In this document: one piece after another, positions 9,332 through 57,625 of the stretch
Position numbering within the stretch: the first letter of the stretch is position 1
Layout of the letters: every line of letters starts with the position of its first letter
Assembly: GCA_041906465.1 (NCBI GenBank)
Contig: JAYRJE010000015.1
Location: forward strand, 105,340-169,339
Reading direction: 5' to 3'
Origin: Candidatus Didemnitutus sp.
Lineage (GTDB): Bacteria; Verrucomicrobiota; Verrucomicrobiia; Opitutales; Opitutaceae
Length of the DNA: 64,000 nt
Notes under the pieces: model-generated
What the model was told of the DNA's origin: nothing
What the model saw: only the letters and a program-made list of their open reading frames with translations
The model's database searches: none
Translations under genes and position numbers: made by a program

Positions 9332-9346
9332 TGCAAAGCTTTGGCC

Positions 9347-21300: not shown

Positions 21301-22045
21301 CGCGACGTTCACGAAGGCCGACCTCACCGCGGCCGACGTGGGCACCTACGATGTCGTCGTGACCAACGCCTACGGCACCGCGACCTCGCGCAGCGCCGTC
21401 ATCGCGCTCAATCAGCAGGCGCAGACGATCACGTTCGCCGCGTTGCCCGATGTGCCGTTCAGCGCCACGCCGCTCACTCTCAGCGCGACTGCGACCTCCG
21501 GCCTCACGGTCACATTCAGTGTCGTTTCCGGTTCCGCCAGCCTCACGGGCAACCAGCTGACGCTGCTCGGCACCGGCGCGATCACGGTTCGCGCCTCGCA
21601 ATCCGGCAACGGTTCCTACCTCGCCGCGACGCCGGTCGAGCGCACGTTCACCGTCACCGCGAACTTCGCTTCGTGGCTCGTGGACAACTTCGCGCCTTCC
21701 GAGATCGCGAACGCTGCGCTGACCGGTCCGAACGCCGACTTCGACCAGGACGGCGTGCCGAATCTCGTCGAATACGCGCTCGGCCTGAACCCGAAGGCCG
21801 CGAGCACGACCGGCACGCCGGTGTTCGCGCTGGAGAGCGGCAACTGGACGCTGACCTACACGCGTCCCGCGAGCCGCGCCGACGTGAGCTACGCCGTGCA
21901 GTTCTCCACCAACCTCACGACCTGGTCGACGACCGGCGTCACGCACACGCTGGTTTCCACGGTCAACGGCGTGGAGACATGGCGAGCCACTTACCCCGCT
22001 GCTTCGGCCCCGAGCTGCTTCCTGCGACTGATGGTGACGAAATAA
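9347..22045 (+). CDS. Giant secreted/surface protein (about 4232 aa): delta-60-type beta-propeller repeat blocks alternating with Ig-like domains, QTITF domain, shared 127-aa C-terminal domain
   Basis: Signal peptide ending PSARA; dozens of 'V..IAxQxDGKIxxGGxF...RxNxDGxLDTTF' repeats in about 8 blocks; about 8 I-set-like Ig domains (YQWYRxG); single uninterrupted ORF. Confidence 0.88.
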   Translation: MVARFLHAARGVLAFGLVRALLAVVVCAVAALPSARAADLDASFDVDARAFGIGLAVATQPDGKVLVGGSFSRADRAEVTNLARFNSDGTRDTTFNVGSSLDGAVRSIAVQSDGKIVIGGTFTGYGATSRNRIARLNADGSLDTSFNPGTGFDQEVISLAIQSDGKIVAAGAFTTFNGTVRNRVARLTTAGALDTTFLNTGAGANGIVWDVALQADGKPVIVGGFTSYNGTARARVARLTTAGALDTTFNPGTGANADVVAVAIDSAGRAVIGGLFSTYNGTARACLARLTTAGALDTTFASTAVFSSSYDAILDVRLDSAERVVLAGDFYPSYQYNYNTPTQGLARLNADGNALDETFLVRDTVWKISRAGLSFRRIMSIALGADDGVFVAGGMYDPTSGQAGVLRVSNTGARDTTFNARAGIWFPANINAVRPGAGGKYYVAGAFDWIAGARRVDLARFLPNAQIDSTFFAYDSDFTDNQIREVVELPDGKVWVFGPFTKIGSQTRTGAALFNANGSLSYTPPFLTVTGGNANGNVTRALATSSGDVVLAGTFTQVNATARPGIARITAAGVLDTAFAPGAGPVGGAIEDAALDASGRVVIGGSFTSFSGTAEGYIVRLSTAGAVDAAFAANTNVSAAVNSVQVQANGQILLGGSFANSGGYVFNGTTLLNADGTTDTTFNPYPGANSSVFRARRVSDGSVVVTGAFTQMQNQPRPLIARFTTNGPIDSLFATDTIEGGYPVDVLERPDGKLLVRGTFTIVNGQSRNGLARFHSAPVRRGGLESAMNGANLANNVVNAVVPLGDGRFVVAGDFTTFSAQSRSRVAAINVYGEVDSTFNVGSGFNGSVLGGALLSSGKILLWGGFSSYNNAAAPGLVRLNTDGTLDPTFVSPVFNAAVNAVQVLADGRLLVGGAFTFAGATQAGGIVRLHANGAVDTTFNAGTGANGAVFAVARASDGSVFAGGAFTTFADAAAPGVVKLTADGARASGFSIGTGNANNANPVRALAVANDGKLIVAGSFDAWADASVGRIVRLNLDGSRDTTFLNGFGADGAVYALAALSDGRLYVGGAFTTFGGGERRGLVRLSANGVIDPVFDVGAGFSGGEVRALGLASDGRVAAGGTFSSYQGVARSRVAILFGSDETSYSLPGDQIFTANIDPGAPFSLSYGAAISGLRYQWYRDGARIPGATGATYAVASAGLADAGLYTLTFSNGSGEYTTQGWRVTVKLAPVIVGAPITQSVGYGASATFNVGVAGPGPFTYQWYRNGTLIAGATDSSYTVTNVSGADFGATFHVRITNAYGFSDSTPVALTFDTNAVPGALVLPFSSPQAWSGSPTAVVRAAGGQYYVGGSSVFVRLNADGTVDSSFAPALGSFTVTRLALQADGKIIAAGSLPINGTTYQVARFLTSGAVDPTFTPVAVTHSTSSWSTEINALVLQADGKILLGGYFDTVAGTTRRFLARLNTSGALDSTLAPTSDSTGPNSTVLSIVLQGTNVIIGGAFTTYAGATVNYLARFVASNGARDTTFAGGTRADALVRGVAAQADGDLIIHGNFTTYNGTARARLARLNADGSLDTAFNPGSGAAKRSIWDSPSIAAALPSDNGTVIVVGSFDSFSGWPAVNSVRLTSTGAIDTQWATPDSGSTSFGQLFSLSDGSLFVGYTYGGFLRLLSGSYPPQAPAIARAPVAPGGERPAGARVELSALASGPGTLTFQWYRGTTALTNSTTVSGATSPVLTLRSVRASEAGSYQLRVTSSTNGFVETTPVNVAVGAERSGPGSLDLTWAADPMPRISTVLAFASDGSAIASIYDNNLSPSRSFLRKFDANGVLLPTTTFSSGAGFEGYFSELHVQSDGKIIAVGAHLPPGSSTARYLARMNADGSYDTAYTTAPDNSVNDSVLQSDGKLLIVGSFANVSGTARAGVARILTTGGVDTTFTPGAHGLTNLRFVRLATDTANLGKIYLVGYNSTVSSEEIVRLTAAGAVDGTFARVAITNNTVRDIALDSSGRLLLTGNFTTVAGQARRTIARINTNGTLDTTFGPARSAGFSATPSSIAIGTDGWIYLAASDSTSTTFDGFPTGPIVRVDATAGQLDVNFPGSGGIRYESLSEARLWWVGSKLALNGYISGPSRTEFIRVNVDGAPTGAPSLVDSSGDRTVADGSALSLFARFSGAGPFTYVWRKDGNVITGATGPQLVITAVSAADAGAYTVTATNTSGSATATMNVALFSADPLAAVGGFQLTANFNGSITNAVRFADGSVLVSGTFTTVNGTARRSLARFTAAGALDTTFNANVPLATSGEVLISNLIVEPDGRILVHGVLPLNNSTSASLIRLNTNGTLAASILNSTNLTGGIAAVARQADGGIVVMGPFTSILGTARTNFARITSAGALDTTFVPTGLDASDYRQIAVDATGRIWLLGNFTRIGTDSIGARVVRLASTGVLDTTFQAPLFNNTPSRVFFAADGRAFLLGQANFVLGEPSPVVLLDATGAVNRGFRVASTSSAIALAEDSAGRLHGLFGNQILRLTATGEIDRVMNVSSSPGVLLGAGDRLLLAGGSQLSSVGTTSVFGLVYANAADTDTFSLLGPLPANASVAQGGVLALRPGVRGATTGTVTYQWFRDGTPIGGATGPALVLPSATVADRGVYTFTATKGGVTLTAGPTQVDVIANTARPGEVDLGWKASVPLSGVSRIFSDAADNLYLTGNVVAGTASPRALVALDAAGTVRSNFTLSSRVTGFVSGLRFLSGGKLLLYGQSLQLDGLACTLLRLNADGTLDTTFTTSSDPINDLIVLGDGRLLALTSSGLMRYSAAGVRDTTFSSTSYPSGNLFPAPGGKFWIVGSHYDPVSYIVSRWLTRVNADGTIDPTYVGPALRQGENVSAVAATPDGGLYVVLQLNDSNVSGYAFGYRRIVRVRPDGTVDASFAAGTFQFGQTSFSISDLAADAAGRLVVVGMFDRYDGSARNGTVRLLPDGAIDPSFVSLAAPAIASNNALNRVLVLPSGRIVVSTSGATPIGQVADRIGLAALVSTEVAAGTAPVLTTPLTDRTLNPYDALALHAPVFAPASATFQWRKDGTAIPDATGPRYRLIGAPPDAAGEYTVQVTTPGGSVTSAPVLVNVAPSDFSGGLGSRNAFTRVEAPASFAVTQPDGRALVVSLGSTINGSVAHELFRLNADGSFAGGLPTTVTGTNSQLQISAAVVDAEGRIYIGGQFSYVNGVSRNRVARLLADGSLDPTWDPGAGPNSTVSSLALMPDGKLVIGGSFSQVGGVARQFLARLTTTGALDSTFVVGTGLNNLPIALAAQSDGRLLVGGQFTTYNGITATRLIRLDATGGLDATFAPAPNSTVRVIRVAGDGRILVGGDFGQVAGSPRTGLAWLDAQGTLLPTTMNYTSGYRGALILPDNSVIATTANTVARFRADGTADTVFNNANSYRGSFYRTLSSSSASTQLFPVLAAGNEVLIVGDFARISPQSTANTGISRHAAVWLRYSDSLAPVIGTAPIDANLPEGGSVTWTLQATSPSGTLTYAWTKVSDPTTVLATTPSLTRTNVKPGDAGQYRVVVANGEGFAEAFVNLSVRAASVPLPGSVRLGFYAPTLTSSISSVAPAAGGGWWAAINSNLVRLLANGSVDPTFTALTLSSGSITGILDTPSGGLYVWGTFTSLGGQPIPRLIRLTSTGALDETFTAALPSGATISTVAPLADGRVYVGGSFTVDLAGKTTTNFVRLIATGALDTTFDPNGGVDGAPTAIRPLSDGRVYVAGSFSSAGGAARRGVVRFLASGALDGAFNNLNVTSVAQLVVYPDGRLLIAGSFTSVDGVPRTGVARLSANGVVDPGFVLGATPNFGGAFVPIVLRPDGRIVIAGNFNESGSSRSRVLQFEADGALDASFDGTRTFTATIGGVSSTTFRSLTLLPTGHLIVTGSFTYLDDGISRAGVVSLQGTPLAPEITADTIVSATLSAGGTINLSVTATGAPTLSYQWRRNTSAISGATSATFTKADLTAADVGTYDVVVTNAYGTATSRSAVIALNQQAQTITFAALPDVPFSATPLTLSATATSGLTVTFSVVSGSASLTGNQLTLLGTGAITVRASQSGNGSYLAATPVERTFTVTANFASWLVDNFAPSEIANAALTGPNADFDQDGVPNLVEYALGLNPKAASTTGTPVFALESGNWTLTYTRPASRADVSYAVQFSTNLTTWSTTGVTHTLVSTVNGVETWRATYPAASAPSCFLRLMVTK

Positions 22046-22457: not shown

Positions 22458-25400
22458 ATGAAACCGTTCCGGATCGTTGCTCTCCTGATTGCTGTGCTTG
22501 CGCTCGCGTTTGCCTGGCGCGCCGTTTCGCGCCGCTGCGTCGCGACGCCCGGTCCGTCATCCGCGTCCGCCGTCGTCAGCCCGGCGGCTGCACCCGTGGC
22601 CGTTGCGTCCACGATCCCGCCGGCCCCGGCTGCGTCCGCCGCCGCGGCCGGCGTCCCGGCGCTCTTCGGCGCCCGCGGAGCGGTGACGCTCGACGAAGTG
22701 CCGGCGGGACGCTTCCGCGAACAGCTCCGGCAGCTGACACCGACGGCGCGCGCTCAAGCCTTCGCGGCGCTCGAACACCTCCGCATTCCGTATAATGATG
22801 TGGGTTCACTCGTGGCCGATGCCGATGGCCAGCTCTACTACGAGTACGCGCGCGAGCCGGCGGTGGTGGAAGCACCACTCGCCGCCATGCCGGTGGCCAG
22901 CGCCACGTCCGTCGCCATCACCGCTCCCCCGGTGCGGCACAGCCGCCCGGGCGCGTCGCGCGTGCTCTATCTCGACTTTAACGGCCATGATGTCGCCAAC
23001 ACCGCGTGGAATGTCGCGAATCCCACCGCCGGTCGTCCAGCCGTGGAAACTTACGCCTGCCGGCCCTACGATACCGATGGCAATGCGACGACGTTCAACG
23101 AGGCCGAGCAGGCCCAGATCGTGGAGATCTGGCAGCGCGTCGCGGAGGATTACAGTGCCTTTGACGTCGACGTGACGACGGAGGAGCCCGCGGTCTTTAC
23201 GGCCCAGACTTTGCGCGCGCTCATCACCCGCACCGTCGATGCCGCCGGCGTCGCCAACCCCTCCAGCGCGACGGCTTCGGGCGCCGCCTACATCAATATC
23301 TACGGGCAGAGCTACAGCGCCACCTATCAGCCGGCGTTCGTCTATTACGACGTGCTCTCCAGCCCGGCCTCGATCGCCGAGGTCGTGGCCCACGAATTGG
23401 GACACAACCTCGCGCTCTCGCACGACGGCACCTCCACCGCGCAATATTACGGCGGTCACGGCACCGGCGAATTGTCCTGGGGCCCGATCATGGGGGCGCC
23501 GTTTTCGCGCCGTGTGACGCAATGGTCGAAAGGCGACTATTACGAGGCCAACAATCCGCAGGACGACCTTGCGCTCATCGCCGCGCGCCTGACGCTGCGC
23601 ATGGACGTGGCGAGCAACTCGCTCGCGACCGCCACCCCCGCGCCGAATACCGGCAACGACGTGAGTGTCACCGATGTGATCCGCGCGGCGGACGAGAGCC
23701 ACTACCACCGCGTCGTGACCGCGGCGGGCCGCATTGGATTCACGGCTTCGCCGACCAGCTACGGCAATTCGGACCTGCGGCTCGAGCTGCTCGACTCGGG
23801 GGGCAATGCCCTCGCGTTGGACGACCCCGCGGGCGCCCGCATCGGCGGCGTGTTCACGGCGAATCCCGTTCCGGCCGGCATCTACTACCTGAAGGTCACC
23901 GCCTCCGGCACCGGCACGCCGCTGGCCAACCCGCCCAGCGGTTACACCAGCTATGGCAGCATCGGCCAATACACGCTCACCGGCTCGGTGGTGGCCGGTC
24001 CGCCGGTGATCGTGAGCGGCAGCACCACGAGTGTCGGCGTGGGACACGAGTTCCTTTACCAGATCGTGGCGGCGGGCGACGCGAATGCGTTCGGCGCCGC
24101 GGGTCTGCCGCCCGGCGTCAGCGTCGACCCGGCCACGGGCCTGCTCTCCGGCCGTCCGACCGCGACCGGCGTTTACTCGATCACGCTGAGCGCCACCAAC
24201 ACCGTCGGCACCGGCACGGCGCCGCTCACGCTCACCGTCTCCGCCGCCGCGCCGGCCGTGATCGCGACGAGCTCGAGCTACACCGTGCTAGCGCCGGGGG
24301 GATCGACGACGCTGAGCGCCACCGGCTTCAGCGTGAATGGCGCGATCTCCTATCAATGGTTCCGCAACGGTCGGGCGATTGCCGGTGCGACGAACTCAAG
24401 CTGCGTCGCGGCCGCGGGCCCGAACGGCGGCTACGACGCCTATTGGCTCGAGGCCACCAACACGATCGGCACGACCCGGGGCGCGCCGTTTTTTGTCCGT
24501 GCCGCCCCGGCGCACACCCGCGTGCAGGCGTGGAATGCCACCAGCAGCGGCACGCCGCCCACGATTCCGGCCGGCCTGGGCCGTGTCGTCGATGTGGCGG
24601 CGGGAGGCTCGCTCGCGCTCGCCGCCCGCGCCGATGGCCGCGTGGCCGCCTGGGGCGCGCTGTCGGAAGTCGCGTCGCTCGGCGCCAACGTCGTCGCCGT
24701 CGTGGCGGGCAACAGCTACGCGGCGGCGTTGCGTGCGGATGGCACGGTGGCCGTCGTCGGGACCGGCTCCACCGATTCTCTGGTGCTGACGGTGCCGGCC
24801 GGCCTGCGCGACGTCGTGGCGATCGCCGCGGGATCGTTCCATCTGCTCGCGCTGAAGACGGACGGGACCGTCGTCACCTGGGGCATCGACAACTACGGCC
24901 TGCTCACTGTGCCGGCGAACCTCGCGAACGTCGTCGCGGTGGCGGCCGGCGGCTATCGCTCGGTGGCCCTCCAGGCGGACGGCACCGTCGTTTCGTGGGG
25001 ATACAACGCCACGACCATGCCGCCGGCGCTGGCCGGTGTGATCGCCCTGGCCACTTCCGACAGCCGCTCGGTCGTGTTGAAGAGCGGTGGCACGACGGTG
25101 GCGTGGGGCAATTCGGCGAGCGCCGCACCTCGCCTGCTGCCGGAGGGCAGCCGCCTCATCGCGGGGGTGGATCGCTTCTATGCTGTGCTGCCGGACGGCA
25201 CGCTGTTTGCCTGGGCGGCGGGCCTGTCCGCGGGCCCGATGCCGGCAAATCTGGCCGGTGTCGTGACGGTCAGCGGCGGCAGTTCAACCGTGCTGGCGAT
25301 CGTCGATGGGGCCGGGGACGCGGCGCCGAGCGTGACCGCGTCGCCAGTTTCGGTGCTGCGTGCCGTCGGTGATAGCTGCACGTTCACCGTGACGGCCAAT

Positions 25401-42821: not shown

Positions 42822-42842
42822 TGCCATTTTTCTGATGGCGTC
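42820..42842 (+). terminator. Possible terminator hairpin after the 6787-aa gene
   Basis: GATGCCAT-(7 nt)-ATGGCGTC, an 8-bp stem with one G.U pair, right at the stop codon. No clear U-tract follows. Confidence 0.25.
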
Positions 42843-42922
42843 CGCTTTCGCCTTGCCTACGCCTTAGCTCGCCGAAGCGCACGTTGACGTGAGGGCCCGC
42901 CGGCTAAGCGAGGATAGGAAGC

Positions 42923-45900: not shown

Positions 45901-48196
45901 GCCACTCGGTCACGCGGCCGTCGCTGGTCATGCCTTGGAGGCTGCTCTGCGCGGCGGATGTGGCGAACATGCCGCATCCTTCCTCGCTGCGGGCACGCCG
46001 TTGCACCTGATTGCGCACAGTTTCGGCACCGTGGTGATCAGCGAGGCTGCGCGCCGGCTGGCCGCCGCGGATATCGAAGTGGATCAGCTGACCGTGCTCG
46101 ACCCTCACGATTTCGACGAGTTTTGGGTGCCGGTGGATGGCGACGCGCGATTGCCCAATGTGAATGTGTGGGAAAACGTGCGCTACGCGGACGACTATTT
46201 CGCCACGAAGGGTGGTGGTGCGTCGGACAATCCCCACGGGCGTGCGATCAATCATGCGCGCACGGAGGATCTCACCGATTTCGACGGGTTCTACAATGCG
46301 TGGTTCAATCACTCGCATTCCAACACGCACGGTTTCTATCACGGAACGGTCAATCCCGGCAGCGTTGGTGACAAGGTTGATGGTCTCGAAGTTCGCTCCA
46401 GCTGGTATTCCGGACGCAAGTCGGACGAATCGGTGGGCTTCACCACCTCTCGTCTCGGCGGACGATTTGGCCGTGGTGACTTTCCCACGCGCGACAGTGG
46501 CGTCGTGGACTACCGCGAACCCGAGCGCCTGCCCGATTCCGATACTGGCTCGCTCGGTCAGGTGAACGATGTGGTGACTTATCCCGAGCGGCCCATTTTC
46601 AACGGCGACTTTTCGCTCTACGACGCCGGTGAAATTGTCGCGCCGTGCACCGTGCCCGGCTTTCTCGGCGCCACCGAATTGCGCGGGCCGCTCCTGGAGG
46701 AAGTCGGCGGCGGCCAAGCCATGCTTTTGTCGTCGCCGCTGGTCGCGCTGACCCAGCCCGGGGACATGATGTTGTCGCGTGTGCGCACGGTGTTGACCTA
46801 CCTGCCGGCGACGGCGCGCCAGTTCTCGTTCCGTTTGCGGCGCGGCTATACATACGCTCCGAGCGCGAGTGATGACTACCTCGAAGTCGCCGTTTTGCGC
46901 GGCGGCACGCGTGAGCAGGTGCGTGAGCCGATCCGCGCTTCGCTGGTCGGCAACAGCGCGTTCGCCACCTACTATGCCGACGTCTCGCGTTACGCGGGAC
47001 AGGCTGTTCAATTTGAGTTTACGGTCACCGCGGGCGTGTTGGTCGGCGGGGTGGCGCCTGGTATTTCCGATTCGAATCTTTATCTCGACGACCTCGGACT
47101 GGTCACCTCCGACGACGCCACGGTGACCGTGACCGCAAGCCCCGCCAACGGCGGTTCGGTGCAGGGAGGTGGCACATTCACCGCCGGCACGACCATCACG
47201 CTGACCGCCACTGCCGGCGCCGGTTTCACTTTCGTGAATTGGAACGATGGCATGACCAGTGCGGTGCGCCAAATCACCGTTCCAGTCGGAGGCGCAAACT
47301 ACACCGCCAATTTCAGCGCCAACACTTTCCTGCTGTCGGTCGACGTTTCGCCGCGCAACGCCGGCACCGTGACGATAGCGCCGGCGAAGGCCCGCTACGA
47401 CTTCGGTGAGGTCGTCACGCTCAGTGCGCAACCGGCCACGAACAACGGTTTCTACAGCTGGACGGGAGACCTTTCGGGCACGAATCCCGTGACGACCCTG
47501 ACCATGTCAGCCGACAAAGCGGTTGGGGCGACTTTTTCGACGCTCGATGTGACACCGGCGCGGCGGCAGATCGCCGCCGGCGGAGGCGAACTCACCTGGC
47601 AAATCGCCGTCTCGCCTGGCACCCAGCCCGAGGTGGCGCTGGGCGCCCCGTGGCTCCGCGACGCGGTGATTGCGTCCACGGACGGGCAGAGCGGCTGGAG
47701 ACTGACGCTCGCTGCGGATGTCAATCCGGGTTCGGCACGCACGGGCTACGTTGACGTGGTCGCTCATGGTCTGTCGCGACGGCTCTCGCTGGACCAAGCG
47801 GCCGCCGCTTCCGGTTATCAGACATGGCTCACTGCCCACTTTGCTGCCGACGAAGTTCAACAGACCGCAATTAGCGGACCGGCTGCGGATCCGGACCGCG
47901 ATGGACTCTCCAATCTGCTTGAATACGCCTTTGGACTCGATCCGCGCTCGGTGAACGGAGCCATCCCGACCACATTGGAACTCACGTCTGGCGGATGGAC
48001 TCTAACCTATGCCCGCCCGGCGGATCGCGGCGATGTCGTTTTCACAGTGGAAACGTCGGCGGATTTGAAAAATTGGACCAATGCGGGAGTTTCCCACGTG
48101 CTCGTATCGACGGCCAACGGGGTCGAAACCTGGCGGGCCACTTACCCCGTGGATGGAGCCCCAAGCTGCTTCTTCCGCATCGTGGTTACGCGTTGA
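42923..48196 (+). CDS. Large secreted/surface protein (1757 aa): duplicated N-terminal modules, alpha/beta-hydrolase-like domain, InlB-B-type and BACON-like domains, shared C-terminal domain
   Basis: GTG start and signal peptide (...LFLWLAAPALAPA); 210-aa tandem unit; THG...HLIAHSFG...VLDPHD; 'VTVTASPANGGSVQGGGTF..G...TLTATAGAGFTFVNW' repeats; shared CTD. Confidence 0.82.
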   Translation: MNRPSPSVSAHTPALSQCRWSRVLLFLWLAAPALAPAAITGLSWRNSSASSSSVLSTVEAGQTVYARVNATNMSGQTVSVTVMEKDTFANDTIQTLSVTINSSGYGTAAWTAKWTDDGVGGGDPEYILRASGASDSAQLSVTDKTGPGAPALSSPSDAATVTASSVAFSWGASSDSASGSGFRDYTLEWANNSAFSSSTRRTGLTTTSYTDTVTADGTYYWRVYAYDKLGNATVSSPASRSFTRSTPRITGLSWRNGSSSSASTLSTIEAGQTVYVRVDATGMASSTVLVTILENDPISNDTIQTLSVTINSSGYGTAAWTAKWTDDGVGGGDPEYILRASGASDSAQLSVTDKTGPSAPALSSPSDAATVTASSVAFSWGASSDSASGSGFRDYTLEWANNSAFSSSTRRTGLTTTSYTDTVTADGTYYWRVYAYDKLGNSTVSSPASRSFIRLTPRITALSWRSAATTSAPTLASVRAGQTAVIRIDSVGMAGGNVSVSVYESDPLADDFVETINVPIGADGVGFANWAARWLDDGVGGGDPEFLLRVAGVADSALLTVTPSTGAIAASLRALSETQPDPARLSIMVEETGQEKFGAGIATPVRFEDLAPGTYHVTGKYQSQTGHTEYWSWKRSYTVAAGATTAAPLIRNLPYVRAVEFAAVDAAGAERILGAGDSVNPGSTVKARLLLANPTGSAAAVRWTLALDRLRDATNDVVRTGTTTIAGAATDTTVEATVSLSDLGSYSYFVTLETDLEGFRYTDSWSWNSSFGVFSVPPPQVSIWPLLPIALRTGESSTITIKVMHQQGDQMVNSSGASVQVFDAFVGATPIALPLTDANGETSYKVTASGRTVAVDATEDLAIRVVASRPGGGVAETTKRVRLHNPKFGVTAVTHGYLPGAGTAPGWLYDLAIAVLNRAGRGKLWLMSFEESGVTTLTRLSLTGAEQRATSEKFSPQFVEGSDASADASNPAKIGEQVIIYHWGTYANNTLASPLGHAAVAGHALEAALRGGCGEHAASFLAAGTPLHLIAHSFGTVVISEAARRLAAADIEVDQLTVLDPHDFDEFWVPVDGDARLPNVNVWENVRYADDYFATKGGGASDNPHGRAINHARTEDLTDFDGFYNAWFNHSHSNTHGFYHGTVNPGSVGDKVDGLEVRSSWYSGRKSDESVGFTTSRLGGRFGRGDFPTRDSGVVDYREPERLPDSDTGSLGQVNDVVTYPERPIFNGDFSLYDAGEIVAPCTVPGFLGATELRGPLLEEVGGGQAMLLSSPLVALTQPGDMMLSRVRTVLTYLPATARQFSFRLRRGYTYAPSASDDYLEVAVLRGGTREQVREPIRASLVGNSAFATYYADVSRYAGQAVQFEFTVTAGVLVGGVAPGISDSNLYLDDLGLVTSDDATVTVTASPANGGSVQGGGTFTAGTTITLTATAGAGFTFVNWNDGMTSAVRQITVPVGGANYTANFSANTFLLSVDVSPRNAGTVTIAPAKARYDFGEVVTLSAQPATNNGFYSWTGDLSGTNPVTTLTMSADKAVGATFSTLDVTPARRQIAAGGGELTWQIAVSPGTQPEVALGAPWLRDAVIASTDGQSGWRLTLAADVNPGSARTGYVDVVAHGLSRRLSLDQAAAASGYQTWLTAHFAADEVQQTAISGPAADPDRDGLSNLLEYAFGLDPRSVNGAIPTTLELTSGGWTLTYARPADRGDVVFTVETSADLKNWTNAGVSHVLVSTANGVETWRATYPVDGAPSCFFRIVVTR
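43188..44274 (+). repeat. Near-identical intragenic direct repeat (43188-43644 vs 43818-44274; period 630 bp)
   Basis: By-eye alignment of about 457 bp found roughly 11 mismatches, mostly synonymous. Confidence 0.92.
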
Positions 48197-48199
48197 GCA

Positions 48200-50188: not shown

Positions 50189-50234
50189 GGTGGGAAGGTG
50201 AGCGCGCACGGGTTGGGGCTAAACAGCAGGAGGA

Positions 50235-50299
50235 ACCACGGATTTCTCGGATGGCACGGATGAAGCGCCTGGATCCGTGTGATCGGTGCAATCCGTGGT
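50235..50299. repeat. Intergenic inverted repeat with 9-bp-periodic arms (CACGGAT type)
   Basis: ACCACGGATTTCTCGGATGGCACGGAT (50235-50261), 11-nt spacer, ATCCGTGTGATCGGTGCAATCCGTGGT (50273-50299). Confidence 0.75.
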
Positions 50300-50455
50300 G
50301 GATGGCTTGAGCGGAATTGGGGTTGATCAGAAACGCCGCGGACGCGAGCGCGGGCGGAGCGGACCGTCAACCATCGAGGCTGCGCTTGCGACGCGCGGGC
50401 GAACGCGCTGGGATGCGGCTGTGATTCCGCCCGTGCAACGGCCCGACGCACCACG

Positions 50456-50578
50456 GTGGAGCGCATTGTCCTCAATGCGCTCGAGCGATCGTCCCGCGGC
50501 GAGAATTCGAGAACGCGTTGATGCGCCGGAGGCACACAAGGGGCTTGCCCGCCTCTGGCGGGTCAACGCGTTCCACCT
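50456..50578. repeat. Second inverted pair of the GTGG-footed REP-like family, one copy with an expanded loop
   Basis: GTGGAGCGCATTGTCCTCAATGCGCTCGA (50456-50484); GAACGCGTTGA (50511-50521) ... TCAACGCGTTCCACCT (50563-50578). Confidence 0.72.
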
Positions 50579-50639
50579 GCTACCGCCGCTCGCTCGAATC
50601 GTCATCGCCGTCGCGTTGTGGGCGTTGCCGTCGACGCCG

Positions 50640-51161
50640 ATGAGCGCGGCGGAGAACCTGGCGGACGTGCTGCGCGGCTTCCGGGTCGCACCGGCTGGAT
50701 TCGTGAGCGAGAACTTGCAGCGCGTCGCGGTTCCTTCGCCGAAGTCGCTCGTGCGCGAGTCGCGGCACGGCTATGCGGCGTGGGCGGCGGATGTTTTCTC
50801 GGCGGACGAACTCGCCGACGCGCGCTTGAGCGGGCCTGACGCCGTGCGTGCCGCGGATGGTCTGACGAATTTGGAAAAATACGCGCTCGGGCTCGATCCG
50901 CACGACGTGGCGCGCGCGGCTGACTTGCCCGAGAGCGGACAGCTCGATGACCACTGGTTTCTTTGGTATCGGCGTCCGAGCGACACCGACGACGTCGAGT
51001 ATCGCATCGAAGTTTCGACGGACGACGGCGCGACGTGGAGGAGCGGTGGCGTGACGCAGGAGCCGATCCTGGCGAACGACCTCGCCCAGTCCTGGCAGGC
51101 GCACTATCACGCGGCAGCGGGGCAGACGGTGCGCTGGCGGTTGGTGCCGCGACTGCGCTGA
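50640..51161 (+). CDS. Small protein consisting almost only of a diverged copy of the shared C-terminal domain (start uncertain)
   Basis: GYAAWAADVFSADEL...SGPDA...DGLTNLEKYALGLDP...W.L.YRRP....DVEYRIEVSTD...W..GGV...WRL aligns with the giant-protein CTDs. ATG at 50640, but a signal-peptide-like stretch (IVIAVALWALPSTPMSA) lies upstream in frame; alternatives are TTG 50616 and ATG 50475. Confidence 0.75.
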   Translation: MSAAENLADVLRGFRVAPAGFVSENLQRVAVPSPKSLVRESRHGYAAWAADVFSADELADARLSGPDAVRAADGLTNLEKYALGLDPHDVARAADLPESGQLDDHWFLWYRRPSDTDDVEYRIEVSTDDGATWRSGGVTQEPILANDLAQSWQAHYHAAAGQTVRWRLVPRLR

Positions 51162-51430
51162 GCAGCGCGCCTTTTCGCGATACGGTCGGGGCGGGGCAGC
51201 CTGTTTCCAGAAAAATCTTGCCGGCAATTGGGGGGATTTCAGCATGCGGGTTCGTCCATCGACAATGGGCCCACCAAATCGGGATGTTTTGGTGTGTCGG
51301 CGCGGCGAAACGACATTGCCATGGATCTTCCCCCGCCCCCGCCCTCCCGCGCGTCCCGCCGGACCGCGCGAAACCAAGAACGCGAGCGCGCTGACTTCCA
51401 GTGCGGCCCTGGAGTGTTGCCGCGCTGCCG

Positions 51431-54400: not shown

Positions 54401-57400
54401 TATGTGGCCGTCGGACGGAACGGGCGGGTTGTCGTCTCCACCGACGGCCTCAACTGGACGGCCCATCCCCAGGCGGAATCTCTGCTTTTTTATCGCGTCG
54501 TCTTTGGCGCCGGCGTCTTTGTCGCCACGGATGGGACAAACCTGTGGAGCTCGGCCGACGGCACGCAATGGACCGCACGGAACCGGCCGATAAAAAGCAG
54601 CGGCAGCTACACTGGGTTTGTTTCCAGCCTGGAATATGCCGACGGCAATTTCGTCGCCACGTATGGCAGCGACGTCCTCCGGTCGGCTAACGGCGTAGAC
54701 TGGCAGGTGCTGTCGGGCGTGCTGCCGCCGCCGGTGAACGGTAACTATTTCACCGGCCGACTCGTGGTGGCGGACGGCAAACTTTGGGCGATCGGTTCCA
54801 CCTTCGGCGGGCTTCCCTTCTGGCTGCGCGCTCCGCGTGTGGCCAGTCCGCCCGCCATCACGGCATCGCCGGCGGATGTCGTGATCGCCAGTGGTGGCAG
54901 CGCGACGCTGACGGTGGCTGCGAGCGGCTCGGACCTGACCTATCAATGGTATCGTGGTCCGGCGGGCGATGCTTCCAATCCGATCGTTGGCGCCAGCGGA
55001 GCATCCTACGTCACGCCCGCGCTGACTCAAACCGCGCAGTATTGGGTGCGGATCACCAACGCGGACGGTGCGGCAAGCAGTCCGACGGTGACGGTGGCCA
55101 TCGGCAGTGCGCCGGTCATCACGACTCACCCGGTCGATCTGGATGTCCTGGCCGGTTCCACGCCGAACCTCGCGGTCGTCGCTACCGGCAATCCGGCTCT
55201 CAGTTACCAGTGGTATCGCGGGGAGAGTGGCGATACGTCGCGACCGGTCGCCGGTGCGACCGGCGGCAGTTACACTCCGCCCACCGACGGCGCGTATGCC
55301 GTGCGGTATTGGGTGCGCGTGAGTAACACCTTGGGCACAGCGGACAGTCGCGCCGTGATTGTGACTCCATGGTTCGCTCGGAGCACGCTCGTCAATCAGT
55401 TGATCGCCGGAGTGGTTCACGGCGCGGGTCGCTGGGTGGTGCAGGGATTCTCCGACAACGATTACTTTTCGGACGATGGGGCTGCCTGGAGCAGAACAAC
55501 CACGGCCGTCGGCGGCCAAAGCGGTGGCCCGGTCGCGTGGGGCAACGGAATCTTTGTCGCCGCCGATTCCGACACGGTCGGCGCGCTTTGGGTTTCGTCG
55601 GACGGCAGCACGTGGAGGAAGATCTTCGTGCCGGGGAGCAGTGCCGGATTCACGCAGGTCGCTTACGCCGGAGGCTACCTGTTTGCGCTGGGCGCGGAAG
55701 GCAAGTTTGCGACGTCGGTCGACGGCACCAACTGGACGCTGCGCGGCGTCGGGAGCAGCGTGTATCTGCACGACGTTGCTTACGGCAACGGTCGTTACGT
55801 GATGGCGGCGGGACTCACCACGCACACTTCGACGGATTTGAGCGCGTGGGAATCCTTCGCCGTCGCGGACGGCGATATTCGAATCTCGGCGTTGAGCTTT
55901 GGAGCCGGAAAATTTGTGGCGGTCGGCGGAGCCAATCAGGGCCGGATCATGACCTCGACCGATGGCGCGAGTTGGACGGTGCGCTACACCTCCAACTCAA
56001 ACGGCGTTCACGATGTCGCGTTCAATGGCTCGCGCTTCGCGGTGTCCGCGAGCGACTACTTGCTCGTGTCGCGCGACGGGCTGGACTGGAGAGCGCTTTC
56101 GCTGCCTGAAACCTCCGTGATCGCATCCGGAGCCGGCCGTTTTCTGGCCGTCGGCAATTTTGCGGCCTGGCAGAGCGCGGCGGATGAGCTGCTCGGTCCG
56201 GTGATCACCGCGCAACCCACCCAACAGTCCGTGGTGGCCGGCGCGGATGCCACTTTCCGCGTTACTGCCGTCGGCGGCACGCTGACCTATCGCTGGCAGA
56301 AAGACGGCGTCGACCTTTCCGGCGCCACGGGTGCGACGCTTACGCTCGCCAACGTCACCGCTGCCGACGCGGGACTCTATTCCGTCGTGGTGACGAACGA
56401 GGCCGGCGCGGTGGTCTCGGAAGTTGCGCGCCTCACCGTCGTGGCATTGCCGCACCTCGTCGCTCAGCCCCAGGCGCAGACCATCAAGGAGGGACAGCCG
56501 ATCTACTTCGAGGTCGTCGTGGCGGGAGACGCTCCGACGACGTATGTGTGGTATCGGGACAACGTTCCCATCGCTGGCGCGATCGATGCGCGGCTCCGCT
56601 TCAGTGCGGTGCAGCCGAGTGATGCCGGCTCTTACACGGTGAAGGTGACCAACGCCGCGGGCTCGGTGACGTCCGCCCCGGCGATCCTGACGGTTGCGAC
56701 GGTCCCCGTCATTACTCTGCAGCCCGCGTCGCAAAGCACCACCATTGGCGTGCCGGTGAGCTTCACCCTCACGTCCACCGGGACGGGAATGTTTCACTAC
56801 CAATGGGAGACGTCGCCCGCGGGCTCCGACACCTGGAGCTATGTGCCGCTGGAGGCCGGCTACACCGGCGTCATGAGCCAGACGCTCACGGTCGTGTCGC
56901 CGACTGCCGCGGATAGCGGGCGGCGATTCCGCTGCGTGGTCATGGACGACGTGGGCTTGGCGCGGTCCCAAGCGGCGACGCTGACGGTCAGGCTCAATCC
57001 GCAGACGATCACGTTTGCGAGTCCTGGTGACCAGTCGTTCAGCTTCACGCCGCTCAAGCTCACCGCCAGCGCGAGCTCCGGTCTGCCGGTGAGTTTCGCG
57101 ATCGATTCGGGCCCGGCCAGCGTGGACGGTAACACGCTCACGCTCACTGGCACCGGCTCGGTGACCGTGCGCGCTTCGCAGGGAGGCGACGCGTCCTACG
57201 CCGCGGCGGCAAGCGTCGTGCGCACGTTCACGGTGACGGCCAGTTTCGCTTTCTGGCAGCTGAACGCATTCTCGCCTGCTGAGCGGAGCGATCCGACGGT
57301 TAGTGGTCCCCAGGCCGATCCCGATGCGGATGGAATTTCGAATCTGATGGAATACGCACTCGGCCTGGATGCCCGAAGCGCATCGGCGATGGGCGTGCCG

Positions 57401-57625
57401 GTCGTGGCGCTCGAGTCAGGCCACTGGTCGTTCACCTACACGCGACCGGCGGATCGCTCCGACGTCGTCTACACCGTCGAGCGGTCCGACGATCTTGTGC
57501 GCTGGAGTCGTGATGGTCTCGTGCACGCGCGCGTGTCGGTTGCGGACGGGGTTGAAACCTGGCGTGCAACCTATCCGACCGCTTCCGCCCCGGTTTGCTT
57601 TTTCCGGTTGGTGGTCACGCGCTGA
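51431..57625 (+). CDS. Large secreted/surface protein (about 2064 aa): RCC1-like propeller, two blocks of SxDGxxW repeats, Ig-like domains, QTITF domain, shared C-terminal domain
   Basis: ATG 51431 and signal peptide (MRTVRFPFIAAKWVMLACVVWSVSLAA); RCC1 blades at about 51750-52545; repeated 'V.YGxGxFVAV...xSxDGxxW' at about 53070-54840 and 55370-56190; shared CTD. Confidence 0.86.
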   Translation: MRTVRFPFIAAKWVMLACVVWSVSLAATPPSTSVIASGSSITFDATTEGATSYGWSRNGEYLGISSPQFVIENASALHAGSYQVSIVHSTGVSYRMFHVRVARSNVVQAWGDNTFGQCAVPAGLHDVVDLSAGQDHTLALRSDGTVVAWGRNDHGQCAVPVGLSGVVQVAAGADHSVALKADGSVVAWGLNTSGQCAVPAGLTGVGFVAAGGAHTIALKHDGTVVAWGDNAYGQTDIPYAIRPLRTISAGLTHNVAITDVGRVVAWGDNESGQSTPSWDTYATAVHAGEKFTAYLNSGRQLWYFGKLVPAMPSGSYAVALSGRARHGLALRADGSVVAWGPNVSGEGSIPAGIGNVQQVAAGRAHSVVALSGVPPTITLQPVAQTAAEGDSVAFTVAAGGAATYQWLHEGVALTDGGRFAGTSTATLTISPVQETDAGSYTVRMGNPFGEVTSQPALLAVHPLIVRAQGTALANSDGSQVTLSVSVSGVGPFTYQWYRGQSGDTSTPVNGGVSATLTVAQTTAADPYWVRVSNGMAQADSVTIPVGKWQVIDPVFGASPLYAVAYGGGNYVVVGGSVGYSTTGREWQVGAIESGADLRTVVHDGTRFVAAGTGGQVFVSGDGALWTKLRAADVNADTDLPHAAAVGNGTVVFLGFRQVLTSTDGTAWAWRVINADGQTIVLRSIAFGAGRFVAVGATSANFGSPCIFSSLDGVNWTQATVPLTSPNGSYKLGDLQQVHYLGGRFVALGMLAYSSNSNYVLSSTDGVTWSTAVASNLTVSPEFMALGNGQLVSADLRTSADGITWSASRGNLPPGHPRGLSFGNGLFFYLSYADNDTYSSIATSSDLSNWTTRTGFGVPEYVGYGSGRFVGFARERTGYSLDGLTWTATDGLGYSVATEDVSYGNGLFVARDTTGRNVTHYTSSDGITWTARTAAALNGTQVFATIRYLNGQWVGVSAGIGILTSPDAVTWTKCFADTNYYYRDIAYGAGRYVAVGRNGRVVVSTDGLNWTAHPQAESLLFYRVVFGAGVFVATDGTNLWSSADGTQWTARNRPIKSSGSYTGFVSSLEYADGNFVATYGSDVLRSANGVDWQVLSGVLPPPVNGNYFTGRLVVADGKLWAIGSTFGGLPFWLRAPRVASPPAITASPADVVIASGGSATLTVAASGSDLTYQWYRGPAGDASNPIVGASGASYVTPALTQTAQYWVRITNADGAASSPTVTVAIGSAPVITTHPVDLDVLAGSTPNLAVVATGNPALSYQWYRGESGDTSRPVAGATGGSYTPPTDGAYAVRYWVRVSNTLGTADSRAVIVTPWFARSTLVNQLIAGVVHGAGRWVVQGFSDNDYFSDDGAAWSRTTTAVGGQSGGPVAWGNGIFVAADSDTVGALWVSSDGSTWRKIFVPGSSAGFTQVAYAGGYLFALGAEGKFATSVDGTNWTLRGVGSSVYLHDVAYGNGRYVMAAGLTTHTSTDLSAWESFAVADGDIRISALSFGAGKFVAVGGANQGRIMTSTDGASWTVRYTSNSNGVHDVAFNGSRFAVSASDYLLVSRDGLDWRALSLPETSVIASGAGRFLAVGNFAAWQSAADELLGPVITAQPTQQSVVAGADATFRVTAVGGTLTYRWQKDGVDLSGATGATLTLANVTAADAGLYSVVVTNEAGAVVSEVARLTVVALPHLVAQPQAQTIKEGQPIYFEVVVAGDAPTTYVWYRDNVPIAGAIDARLRFSAVQPSDAGSYTVKVTNAAGSVTSAPAILTVATVPVITLQPASQSTTIGVPVSFTLTSTGTGMFHYQWETSPAGSDTWSYVPLEAGYTGVMSQTLTVVSPTAADSGRRFRCVVMDDVGLARSQAATLTVRLNPQTITFASPGDQSFSFTPLKLTASASSGLPVSFAIDSGPASVDGNTLTLTGTGSVTVRASQGGDASYAAAASVVRTFTVTASFAFWQLNAFSPAERSDPTVSGPQADPDADGISNLMEYALGLDARSASAMGVPVVALESGHWSFTYTRPADRSDVVYTVERSDDLVRWSRDGLVHARVSVADGVETWRATYPTASAPVCFFRLVVTR

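What the first reader, a model, noticed from the sequence alone, without database searches (positions are those of the whole stretch)
21662..57625. Shared, gap-free 127-aa C-terminal domain on four giant secreted proteins: candidate new secretion/anchoring signal beside a T2SS
Seen: the last 127 aa of four otherwise different proteins (21662-22045, 42438-42821, 47813-48196, 57242-57625; each exactly 384 nt with stop) align without a gap. Invariant positions include W5, F10, GP22-23, AD25-26, D28, DG30-31, NL34-35, EYA37-39, G41, W62, TY65-66, RP68-69, R72, D74, S82, L85, W88, G92, H95, VS98-99, G103, ETWRAT105-110, P112, P117, CF119-120, R122 and VT125-126. All four have Sec-type N-termini, and none has a recognisable outer-membrane route (no autotransporter barrel, RTX, T9SS CTD, PEP-CTERM or TM tail). 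Known: conserved soluble terminal domains act as sorting signals in other systems (T9SS CTD). Inference: this is an analogous signal or assembly module, possibly for the GspD/GspE machine in the same window. The DxDxDG part resembles bacterial TSP3-like Ca-binding motifs, so part of it may already have a Pfam match.
Basis: partly seen in the sequence, partly recalled or inferred. Interest (0 to 1): 0.9.

Follow-up and report, generated by a model that had tools for sequence, protein, structure and literature searches.

The report
Uncatalogued C-terminal domain of Verrucomicrobial surface proteins
Five secreted proteins in this window, four of them giant, end in the same ~127-residue calcium-loop-plus-beta-sandwich domain, which sits at the very C-terminus of thousands of Verrucomicrobiota proteins, is in no domain library searched, and looks like a new cell-surface sorting or anchoring tag whose partner is unknown.

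Summary
The last 127 aa of four giant proteins align without a gap, with 51-56% identity and 45 invariant columns.

The segment is an autonomous domain. AlphaFold2 gives pLDDT 97. It has short helices, one EF-hand/dockerin-like DxDxDGxxNxxE loop with an exiting helix, and a six-stranded Ig-like sandwich. It has no significant Pfam, NCBIfam or PDB sequence match, and its fold matches only generic Ig domains.

The family is very large (1,292 50%-identity clusters at E<=1e-30). The 80 best genome loci are all named Verrucomicrobiota or unnamed. In 95 of 102 strong hits the domain ends within 3 residues of the stop codon. Its cargo is very diverse, including proteases, GH5 cellulases, propellers and Ig or Calx-beta arrays.

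Orthologues of the neighbouring M10 protease give a natural tail swap. Here that protease ends in a GlyGly-CTERM-like tail next to a rhombosortase; in two relatives it ends in this domain.

Best reading, by inference: a surface-sorting or retention module. The proposed link to GspD/GspE is weak, because a secretin lies within 10 kb in only 1 of 80 related loci. The T2SS genes here sit in a locus conserved in the closest relative with the M10 protease, whose rhombosortase/GlyGly-CTERM pairing is window-specific. Some distant members carry tandem or internal copies, sometimes fused to a TIGR02597-family domain.

The parts
21662..22045 (+). C-terminal domain (CTD) copy 1; ends the 4234-aa protein (gene 9341-22045: DUF5122 propeller blades and Ig domains)
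   Evidence: Gap-free alignment; Pfam on the whole protein; AlphaFold2 model of this copy, pLDDT 97.2 and pTM 0.88
42438..42821 (+). CTD copy 2; ends the 6787-aa protein (gene 22458-42821: reprolysin-like metalloprotease, RCC1 propellers, Ig, MBG)
47813..48196 (+). CTD copy 3; ends the 1757-aa protein (gene 42923-48196: InlB B-repeat-like domains). It lacks the upstream Ig-like domain shared by copies 1, 2 and 4.
57242..57625 (+). CTD copy 4; ends the 2074-aa protein (gene 51401-57625: RCC1 propeller, Ig domains)
50769..51161 (+). It ends a small protein (ORF 50286-51161; likeliest start ATG 50475; hydrophobic signal-like segment, about 40 aa, then the CTD). The Ca loop is degenerate (D26V, D28A, E37K), and C119 and the ETWRAT motif are lost.
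   Evidence: HMM hit E=1.4e-26 ending 2 aa before the stop; alignment; GC3 is 0.83 in the coding part against 0.67 upstream
21737..21781 (+). EF-hand/dockerin-like Ca2+ loop and start of the exiting helix in copy 1 (D26-F-D-Q-D-G-V-P-N-L-V-E37-Y-A-L). The equivalent positions in copies 2-4 are conserved. This is the most conserved part family-wide.
   Evidence: Read directly from the sequence: D1, D3, D5, G6, N9, E12 pattern. D26, D30, G31, N34, L35, E37, Y38, A39 are at least 90% conserved in 45 members. D/D/D/G/N/L/E/Y/A are invariant or at least 90% conserved in 64 further members. Helix 34-40 in the model.
3444..4898 (+). Context: M10 metalloprotease plus an Ig domain, ending in a Gly run, a hydrophobic helix and a basic tail (GlyGly-CTERM-like: ...PSGGGGGGGGGAPSHWFFAALALTALARWRQRRQ*). 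Its orthologues in L002 and L008 end in the CTD instead.
4906..5514 (+). Context: rhombosortase, the dedicated partner of the GlyGly-CTERM protease
   Evidence: TIGR03902, 101 bits against a cut-off of 84, E=5.9e-29; Pfam Rhomboid
504..2525 (-). Context: GspD-like secretin (N0 domain, three Secretin_N domains, Secretin)
   Evidence: Pfam; TIGR02517, 298 bits, below its 351-bit cut-off
1..469 (-). Context: N-terminal ~156 aa of a GspE-like ATPase; the gene runs off the left end of the window
   Evidence: Translation. The longer Logan contig L081 shows MshEN and T2SSE domains.

Best explanation
The 127-aa segment is a self-folding C-terminal domain that is in none of the libraries searched. In order it has three short helices, one EF-hand/dockerin-like Ca2+ loop (DxDxDGxxNLxEYA) with its exiting helix, and a six-stranded Ig-like beta-sandwich whose last strand (F-F/L-R-L-x-V-T) ends 0-3 residues before the stop codon. 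It is spread across Verrucomicrobiota on very many Sec-exported, functionally unrelated extracytoplasmic proteins. The most likely function, by inference, is a C-terminal surface-sorting or retention module. After Sec export the domain would fold around Ca2+ and present its conserved loop-helix face to a shared cell-envelope partner. That would hold enzymes and giant adhesin-like proteins on the cell surface. It would then play the role that GlyGly-CTERM/rhombosortase, PEP-CTERM/exosortase, dockerin/cohesin or the T9SS CTD play elsewhere. Shown: the domain exists, its predicted fold, its terminal position, its phyletic concentration, its cargo diversity, purifying selection, and its absence from the libraries. 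Inferred: Ca2+ binding, a partner, and surface retention. The partner is not identified. It is not specifically the adjacent T2SS. A weak lead is the TIGR02597 family of secreted proteins.
For: (1) Autonomous domain: AlphaFold2 gives pLDDT 97.2 and pTM 0.88, with 4 helical segments and 6 strands. (2) Not catalogued: no Pfam or NCBIfam hit for the 4 copies; no Pfam family covers the domain in 45 members; no PDB sequence match; Foldseek finds only generic Ig-like sandwiches, with TM 0.3-0.44. (3) Large family: 52,641 50%-identity cluster representatives at E<=1e-3 and 1,292 at E<=1e-30. About 128 of the best 150 have their best match ending at the protein's C-terminus. (4) Phylum: at least 544 confirmed genome matches. 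The best 80 loci are all named Opitutales, Chthoniobacterales, Verrucomicrobiales or Akkermansiaceae, or are unnamed. (5) Position: 95 of 102 strong hits end within 3 aa of the stop, and 98 of 102 within 8 aa. (6) Many copies per genome and clustered genes: 5 in this 64-kb window; at least 7 in MAG JAMPXH01 and at least 6 in CAMTVI01 among the retained loci. (7) Cargo: 73 Pfam families among 64 proteins carrying the domain, including M10, S8 and C10 peptidases, GH5, cyclophilin, CBM2, Calx-beta, Ig, DUF5122, RCC1 and PATR. (8) Natural tail swap: in the syntenic secretin-orf-M10 locus, the window's M10 protease carries a GlyGly-CTERM-like tail and a rhombosortase follows it. The L002 orthologue (48.7% identity over 386 aa) and the L008 orthologue end in the CTD. 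Haft and Varghese used the same swap logic to argue that tails are interchangeable sorting signals (PMC3237569, section 12). GlyGly-CTERM confers surface retention on a T2SS substrate (PMC6219818). (9) The family-wide invariant residues are concentrated in the Ca loop and helix rather than on the sandwich. (10) Old paralogues under purifying selection: dN/dS 0.14-0.33.
Against: There is no experimental or proteomic evidence for location or processing. No conserved partner or machinery gene lies within 10 kb in 80 loci. Some distant members have 2-5 tandem copies (P0046, P0047, P0048, P0049/L028, P0053), or an internal copy followed by a TIGR02597-family domain (L031, L053). So a free C-terminus is not obligatory. 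Domain shuffling among orthologues can occur without equivalent function. The Ig-like fold and the Ca loop are equally compatible with an adhesive or purely structural end-cap. My signal-peptide heuristic was unspecific: 68 of 87 CTD ORFs scored positive, against 43% of control ORFs. Restriction to Verrucomicrobiota is shown only for the 80 best of at least 544 genome matches.
Confidence: 0.5

Rival explanations
1. Generic extracellular end-cap, adhesion module or ligand-binding module. On this reading the domain is a Ca2+-stabilised Ig-like unit that binds an external ligand (a polysaccharide, a surface or another cell), or simply stabilises the end of long repeat proteins. It would have no role in sorting. 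It would be terminal because modules are added at gene ends.
For: Only generic Ig-like fold matches. Tandem arrays of 2-5 copies and internal copies exist in distant members, as is typical of CBMs and adhesin repeats. Cargo is rich in adhesin-like repeats such as Ig, Calx-beta, He_PIG and PKD. No partner gene is linked.
Against: Extreme positional bias: 95 of 102 hits end within 3 aa of the stop, and usually a single copy is present. It is attached to unrelated enzyme classes, including proteases, a PPIase and GH5, which need no common external ligand. It replaces a bona fide anchoring tail in orthologous M10 proteases. Conservation is focused on one loop-helix face across orders. There is no match to any characterised binding family.
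Confidence: 0.3
2. One reading: the domain is the outer-membrane export signal recognised by the adjacent GspD/GspE type II secretion system.
For: A GspD-like secretin and a GspE-like ATPase are in the window. In the closest relative L002, an M10 protease carrying the domain lies two genes from the orthologous secretin. GlyGly-CTERM proteins, which the domain replaces there, are T2SS substrates in Vibrio (PMC6219818).
Against: A secretin lies within 10 kb in only 1 of 80 loci, and that one is explained by synteny. In VesB the GlyGly-CTERM tail is needed for surface retention, not for T2SS export (PMC6219818 abstract), so the swap argues for anchoring rather than export. Known T2SS substrates have no shared linear or domain signal (established knowledge). 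Tandem and internal copies do not suit a translocation signal. It is unknown whether 4,000-6,800-aa proteins can pass a secretin.
Confidence: 0.12
3. Local artefact: the similarity reflects recent duplication or gene conversion among neighbouring giant genes, or a recombination cassette, and is not a functional domain.
For: Five copies lie within 36 kb on the same strand.
Against: Synonymous sites are saturated (dS 1.3 or higher) and dN/dS is 0.14-0.33. DNA identity is only 56-61%. Thousands of homologues occur in other genomes.
Confidence: 0.02

Closest known systems
T9SS C-terminal domain (Por_Secre_tail; Bacteroidota)
   Same: A folded Ig-like beta-sandwich of roughly 80-100 aa at the extreme C-terminus of many unrelated Sec-exported cargo proteins in a genome. 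It is concentrated in one phylum. The last strand lies next to the free C-terminus (T9SS facts from PMC4804311 and PMC11285876 as listed).
   Different: No sequence match to the family models. T9SS CTD structures are not among the 50 best fold matches. The predicted sandwich has six strands, not the 3+4 seven-strand arrangement, and it carries an extra N-terminal helical and Ca-loop part. The host is Verrucomicrobiota, not Bacteroidota. Tandem and internal copies occur. The machinery and any cleavage are unknown.
GlyGly-CTERM / rhombosortase (with T2SS-dependent surface display)
   Same: A C-terminal tag on secreted hydrolases. In this very locus the two tags replace one another on orthologous M10 proteases. 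Rhombosortase is present in the window. Opitutus terrae is a published case of a single adjacent GlyGly-CTERM/rhombosortase pair (PMC3237569).
   Different: GlyGly-CTERM is a ~20-25-aa tripartite signal (Gly/Ser motif, TM helix, basic residues) cleaved in the membrane. The domain described here is a 127-aa soluble folded unit with no hydrophobic tail.
Dockerin (type I) F-hand module / cohesin-dockerin attachment
   Same: A 12-residue Ca2+ loop with D1, D3, D5, G6, N9 and an acidic residue at 12, followed by an exiting helix, in a usually C-terminal module that tethers diverse enzymes to a scaffold. The loop-helix is the most conserved part.
   Different: There is one loop, not the duplicated pair. 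It is fused to a beta-sandwich. There is no Pfam Dockerin hit, and no cohesin-like partner was found. The TIGR02597 model shows no cohesin similarity.
Bacterial TSP3 repeat (Pfam TSP3_bac PF18884 / TSP_3 PF02412)
   Same: The same DxDxDGxxNxxEYxxGxxP motif. Proteins made only of tandem copies of this motif were pulled in by the profile (P0043).
   Different: Matches are sub-threshold (E=0.25; 1 of 45 members at E=0.0098). They cover about 25 of 127 residues. The sandwich and the N-terminal helices are not part of those families.
TIGR02597 family ('Verrucomicrobium spinosum paralogous family')
   Same: Same phylum. The family is fused C-terminally to the domain in several proteins, and in some loci it is encoded directly downstream of genes carrying the domain.
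   Different: It is a different ~330-aa all-beta protein with no fold match in PDB. It is absent from this window. Half of the independent TIGR02597 loci examined have no CTD gene nearby.

Membership tests
T9SS CTD (Por_Secre_tail, TIGR04183/PF18962) | Sequence match to the family HMM | tested here: not met
   No hit at E<=10 for the 4 copies in Pfam or NCBIfam. No hit at E<=0.01 in 45 members.
T9SS CTD (Por_Secre_tail, TIGR04183/PF18962) | Ig-like beta-sandwich at the extreme C-terminus of diverse Sec-exported cargo | tested here: met
   Model with six strands and pLDDT 97. 95 of 102 hits end within 3 aa of the stop. 73 cargo Pfam families. This feature is generic and not sufficient for membership.
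T9SS CTD (Por_Secre_tail, TIGR04183/PF18962) | Host is in Bacteroidota/FCB and has T9SS machinery (PorV, Sov, PorU) | tested here: not met
   The 80 best loci are named Verrucomicrobiota or unnamed. The machinery itself was not searched for genome-wide.
T9SS CTD (Por_Secre_tail, TIGR04183/PF18962) | CTD removed by a sortase-like enzyme, with lipid/LPS attachment | not testable with these tools
   Needs C-terminomics or mass spectrometry.
GlyGly-CTERM (rhombosortase substrate) | Tripartite tail: Gly/Ser motif, hydrophobic helix, basic residues | tested here: not met
   The five copies end ...CFFRLVVTR-type with no hydrophobic helix. The neighbouring M10 protease (3444-4898) does have the tripartite tail by eye, although TIGR03501 gave no hit at E<=1.
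GlyGly-CTERM (rhombosortase substrate) | A cognate rhombosortase is encoded | tested here: met
   TIGR03902, 101 bits against a cut-off of 84, at 4906-5514. This is relevant to the M10 neighbour, not to the CTD proteins.
PEP-CTERM (exosortase substrate) | PEP motif, TM helix and basic tail; match to the PF07589/TIGR02595 models | tested here: not met
   No hit and no hydrophobic tail.
Dockerin (PF00404) | Duplicated F-hand Ca2+ loop-helix; match to the family HMM | tested here: not met
   No Pfam hit. Only a single loop is present.
Dockerin (PF00404) | Canonical 12-residue Ca2+ loop (positions 1, 3, 5, 6, 9, 12) followed by a helix | tested here: met
   D26-x-D28-x-D30-G31-x-x-N34-x-x-E37 is invariant in 4 copies. 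Helix 34-40 in the model. Ca2+ binding itself was not tested.
Dockerin (PF00404) | A cohesin partner is present | not tested
   No cohesin-like gene was noticed in the window. A genome-wide search was not possible.
Bacterial TSP3 repeat (PF18884 / PF02412) | Match to the family HMM above threshold | tested here: inconclusive
   TSP_3 gives E=0.25 and 11.5 bits against a cut-off of 25. TSP3_bac hits 1 of 45 members at E=0.0098. The motif resemblance is clear, but it covers only about 25 residues.
T2SS substrate | Secretion depends on GspD/GspE; no sequence-defined signal is known | not testable with these tools
   Genetic linkage was tested: a secretin lies within 10 kb in 1 of 80 loci.

The most novel reading that the evidence does not exclude
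Verrucomicrobiota have their own phylum-wide system of folded C-terminal sorting domains, a functional counterpart of the T9SS CTD of Bacteroidota. The 127-aa Ca-loop-plus-sandwich domain would target dozens of Sec-exported proteins per genome, including 4,000-6,800-aa giants, to an unidentified outer-membrane export or surface-attachment machinery. That machinery might involve the TIGR02597 plus small-PEP-CTERM-protein cassette.
Probability: 0.3. Interest if true: 0.85.

Novelty: new variant of a known kind. Interest (0 to 1): 0.62.

Why it matters
Verrucomicrobiota are major polysaccharide degraders in soil, water and guts. How they put enzymes and giant adhesin-like proteins on or beyond their outer membrane is largely unknown. 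A single recognisable C-terminal domain shared by thousands of their exported proteins would give three things. First, a sequence rule for predicting the surface and secreted proteome of the phylum. Second, a handle for finding the cognate machinery by phylogenetic profiling or pull-down. Third, a possible display tag for engineering. Even if the domain proves to be only a binding module, it deserves a family model, because it is currently unannotated in a very large number of proteins.

Tried and rejected
1. Known C-terminal signals (T9SS tail, PEP-CTERM, GlyGly-CTERM, dockerin, autotransporter, RTX): no HMM hits in the CTD or in the full proteins.

2. Fold search of the CTD model against PDB and BFVD: only generic Ig-like sandwiches, with TM 0.3-0.44.

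3. PDB sequence and profile search: nothing relevant.

4. Conserved neighbours: all-against-all clustering of ORFs in 80 loci found only histidine kinases (14 loci) and small synteny groups. tblastn with the window's secretin, rhombosortase, PL11 lyase, LysR, MFS, hydrolase and Fic found them only in the closest relatives or not at all.

5. Plasmid collection (tblastn): no match.

6. Literature: six keyword searches found no description of this domain, and 'TIGR02597' occurs in no paper held.

7. Taxon names through cluster look-up: only 'hypothetical protein', with no organism.

8. Signal-peptide heuristic: too unspecific to use (68 of 87 CTD ORFs against 43% of controls).

9. TIGR02597 as a cohesin-like partner: the AlphaFold2 model is confident (pLDDT 92), but it has no PDB fold match (TM<=0.18) and no cohesin resemblance. 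The reciprocal neighbourhood test was mixed: 3 of 6 loci, about 2 of 4 independent ones.

10. Recent duplication or gene conversion: rejected by saturated dS.

11. The word-indexed homologue search returned only fragments of 217 aa or less. That is a bias of the tool or of short contigs, and it was corrected by the exhaustive search.

Full report
OBSERVATION

The four coordinates are the 3' ends of four long + strand ORFs: 9341-22045 (4234 aa), 22458-42821 (6787 aa), 42923-48196 (1757 aa) and 51401-57625 (2074 aa). GC3 of 0.75-0.88 marks them as the coding frames. Their last 127 residues align in 127 columns without a gap. Identity to the first copy is 54, 51 and 56%, and 45 columns are invariant.

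At the DNA level the copies are only 56-61% identical. Third codon positions are 35-49% identical, dS is 1.3 or higher (or saturated), and dN/dS is 0.14-0.33. These are therefore old paralogues under purifying selection, not a recent duplication or gene conversion.

It ends a small ORF (50286-51161; likeliest start ATG 50475; domain from about 50769) immediately upstream of the fourth giant gene. In this copy the Ca-loop ligands are lost (D26V, D28A, E37K). In giants 1, 2 and 4 the similarity continues about 85 aa upstream into an Ig-like domain.

WHAT THE DOMAIN IS

AlphaFold2, run with a 45-sequence alignment, gives one compact domain with pLDDT 97.2 and pTM 0.88. It has helices at 2-9, 12-15 and 18-21, a loop at 22-33, a helix at 34-40, and then six strands (54-58, 61-69, 76-82, 94-101, 104-112, 120-126).

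Residues D26-x-D28-x-D30-G31-x-x-N34-x-x-E37, followed by the helix, fit the canonical 12-residue EF-hand/dockerin 'F-hand' pattern at positions 1, 3, 5, 6, 9 and 12. This is read directly from the sequence; Ca2+ binding is inferred.

Across 45 and 64 more distant members, the residues conserved at 90% or more are this loop and helix (D, D, G, N, L, E, Y, A, then P44). The other conserved residues are W88 and the F-x-R or F..L pattern of the last strand.

No Pfam-A or NCBIfam model reaches significance on the domain. The best hits are TSP_3 at E=0.25 and Amuc_1099_fam at E=0.03, both on the loop only. No Pfam family covers the domain in any of 45 members; TSP3_bac hits 1 of 45 at E=0.0098. PDB sequence and profile searches find nothing relevant. 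Foldseek against PDB and BFVD returns only generic Ig-like sandwiches with TM 0.3-0.44, and no T9SS CTD appears among the top 50. Six literature searches found no description.

HOW WIDESPREAD IT IS

An exhaustive HMMER search of 1.84 billion cluster representatives gave 52,641 hits at E<=1e-3, 25,794 at E<=1e-10 and 1,292 at E<=1e-30. The profile also contained about 53 upstream Ig-like positions, and TSP3-only repeat proteins score too, so the loose counts are inflated. In about 128 of the best 150 hits, however, the best match ends at the protein's C-terminus. These proteins range from 144 to 6,732 aa.

A scan of one genome per species found at least 599 pattern matches, of which 544 were confirmed. 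The 80 best loci are all named Opitutaceae/Opitutales, Chthoniobacterales, Verrucomicrobiales, Akkermansiaceae or Luteolibacter, except three unnamed 'bacterium' MAGs. The closest are Candidatus Didemnitutus, family Opitutaceae. That is probably the window's family.

In these loci 95 of 102 strong domain hits end within 3 residues of the stop codon, and 98 of 102 within 8. Several loci hold 2-4 genes carrying the domain. Single MAGs contribute at least 6-7 copies among the retained loci alone.

CARGO

In the window the cargo is DUF5122 propeller blades with Ig domains; a reprolysin-like protease with RCC1 propellers, Ig and MBG domains; InlB-B-repeat-like domains; and RCC1 with Ig domains.

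Among 64 further ORFs carrying the domain, 73 Pfam families occur. They include Calx-beta (11), Ig (8), DUF5122 (5), He_PIG (5), GH5 cellulase, subtilase S8, peptidase C10, cyclophilin, CBM2, LamG, PKD and PATR.

The N-termini of the five window proteins look like Sec signal peptides by eye. A crude heuristic on 87 complete ORFs was too unspecific to count as a test. I saw no clear cytoplasmic carrier.

SURROUNDINGS AND THE T2SS QUESTION

The left end of the window encodes the following genes:
- a GspE-like ATPase (469-1, -; MshEN and T2SSE domains on the longer contig L081);
- a GspD-like secretin (504-2525, -);
- a 207-aa protein of no known family (2831-3454);
- an M10 metalloprotease with an Ig domain (3444-4898);
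- a rhomboid (4906-5514);
- a hybrid histidine kinase (5774-8563);
- a LuxR response regulator (8617-9234).

The rhomboid is a rhombosortase: TIGR03902 at 101 bits against a cut-off of 84. The protease ends ...PSGGGGGGGGGAPSHWFFAALALTALARWRQRRQ*, which is a Gly motif, a hydrophobic helix and a basic tail. That is the tripartite GlyGly-CTERM architecture. Haft and Varghese list Opitutus terrae among genomes with one GlyGly-CTERM protein adjacent to its rhombosortase (PMC3237569). In Vibrio cholerae, VesB needs the tail, rhombosortase and the T2SS for surface localisation, and is released when the tail is missing (PMC6219818).

The T2SS genes here are therefore explained by a known system. The secretin's nearness to the giant genes is not general. 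Only the syntenic closest relative, L002 (secretin 73.5% identical), has a secretin within 10 kb, which is 1 of 80 loci. Clustering all neighbours found no recurrent machinery gene.

NATURAL TAIL SWAP

In L002 the orthologous M10 protease is 48.7% identical over 386 aa and has the same secretin-orf-M10 order. It is a 573-aa protein that ends in an Ig-like domain followed by the CTD instead of the GlyGly-CTERM tail, and no rhombosortase follows it. In L008 the M10 domain heads a 2941-aa protein that also ends in the CTD.

Replacement of one tail by another among homologues is the argument Haft and Varghese used for the equivalence of GlyGly-CTERM, PEP-CTERM and LPXTG (PMC3237569, section 12). 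By that logic the CTD stands where a surface-anchoring signal stands. This is inference, not proof.

EXCEPTIONS AND A PARTNER LEAD

Distant members have tandem copies: P0046 has 5, P0047 and P0048 have 3, and P0049 (the L028 protein) and P0053 have 2.

In L031, L053, P0046, P0047 and P0076 the last copy is followed by a ~330-aa domain of the TIGR02597 family, which JGI names 'Verrucomicrobium spinosum paralogous family'. The L053 tail scores 279 bits.

Stand-alone TIGR02597 genes with their own signal peptides lie directly downstream of CTD genes in L003, L004 and L084. They lie in the same cluster in L083 and L087. Three other TIGR02597 loci, L082 and the pair L085/L086, have no CTD gene within 10 kb.

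Each of the six TIGR02597 genes retrieved by protein look-up (L082-L087) is followed by a ~200-aa protein with a canonical PEP-CTERM tail.

The TIGR02597 model is confident (pLDDT 92) and all-beta, but it has no PDB fold match. The window has no TIGR02597 gene. Fusion plus adjacency is a Rosetta-stone-type hint of interaction. It is weak, and tandem or internal copies argue for a binding or anchoring module rather than a one-shot translocation signal.

MECHANISM I COMMIT TO

After Sec export, the C-terminal domain folds around Ca2+. Through its conserved loop-helix face it binds a shared envelope partner, and so retains or sorts diverse enzymes and giant adhesin-like proteins at the cell surface.

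Shown: the domain, its predicted fold, its position, its distribution, its cargo diversity and purifying selection.

Inferred: Ca2+ binding, the partner and surface retention.

I put this at about 0.5. The rivals are:
- a generic adhesive or structural end module, 0.3;
- a duplication artefact, 0.02 (refuted).

COMPARISON AND NOVELTY

The domain works most like the T9SS CTD, being a folded terminal Ig-like tag on many cargos in one phylum. It also resembles the dockerin (a Ca-loop-helix attachment module) and, in this locus, GlyGly-CTERM. It is a member of none of them; the membership table gives the tests.

It is best described as a new variant of a known kind: a C-terminal sorting or anchoring domain from a family in none of the libraries searched, in a phylum whose protein export is poorly understood. 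Function and machinery remain to be shown experimentally.

Noticed in passing
window 3444-5514 (+), with 504-2525 (-) and 1-469 (-): A dedicated GlyGly-CTERM-like M10 metalloprotease and rhombosortase pair (TIGR03902 above its cut-off) lies directly beside GspD and GspE. This is a Verrucomicrobial instance of the T2SS/rhombosortase surface-display system. The TIGR03501 model itself did not hit the tail.
   Followed up: yes
window 50286-51161 (+): A small protein consists of little more than a signal-like segment and a degenerate copy of the CTD with its Ca ligands lost. It lies just upstream of the fourth giant gene. Its role (adaptor, decoy or remnant) is unknown and its start codon is uncertain.
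   Followed up: partly
L031 9404-11395; L053 1738-6306; L003 10382-11536; L004 10288-11571; L084 10001-11125: The TIGR02597-family domain is fused after the CTD in some proteins and encoded directly downstream of CTD genes in others. The AlphaFold2 model is confident, but there is no PDB fold match.
   Followed up: partly
L082-L087, about 11045-11749 in each: Each of the six TIGR02597 genes retrieved by protein look-up (L082-L087) is followed by a ~200-213-aa protein with a canonical PEP-CTERM tail (IPEPS..., TM helix, basic residues). This looks like a conserved two-gene cassette.
   Followed up: partly
window 2831-3454 (+): A 207-aa secreted-looking protein with no Pfam or NCBIfam match lies between the secretin and the M10 protease. 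The same arrangement is conserved in L002 and L008.
   Followed up: no
window 5774-9234 (+); L002, L004, L007: A hybrid histidine kinase (HisKA, HATPase, REC, Hpt) plus a LuxR-type response regulator lies beside CTD-bearing giant genes in the window and in three Opitutaceae relatives. They may regulate the cluster.
   Followed up: no
window 22458-42821 against 42923-57625: G+C is 0.70-0.73 across giant gene 2 but 0.63-0.66 across giant genes 3 and 4. GC3 is 0.88 for gene 1 against 0.75-0.77 for genes 3 and 4. The neighbouring giant genes may have different histories.
   Followed up: no
window 23229-23528 (aa 258-357 of the 6787-aa protein): A reprolysin-like (M12B) metalloprotease domain lies near the N-terminus of the largest protein, so at least one giant is an enzyme carrier and not only a repeat adhesin.
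   Followed up: no
window 48200-50209 (-): A rhamnogalacturonan lyase (PL11) gene lies on the opposite strand between giant gene 3 and the small CTD gene. It has no CTD, so not every secreted enzyme in the cluster carries the domain.
   Followed up: no
window 62658-63830 (-): A Fic/DOC protein with an N-terminal DUF4172 domain lies at the right end of the window and appears unrelated to the finding.
   Followed up: no
The word-indexed homologue search returned only fragments of 217 aa or less for this domain. The exhaustive search found full-length carriers up to 6,732 aa, so the first tool under-reports long proteins for short domain queries.
   Followed up: yes
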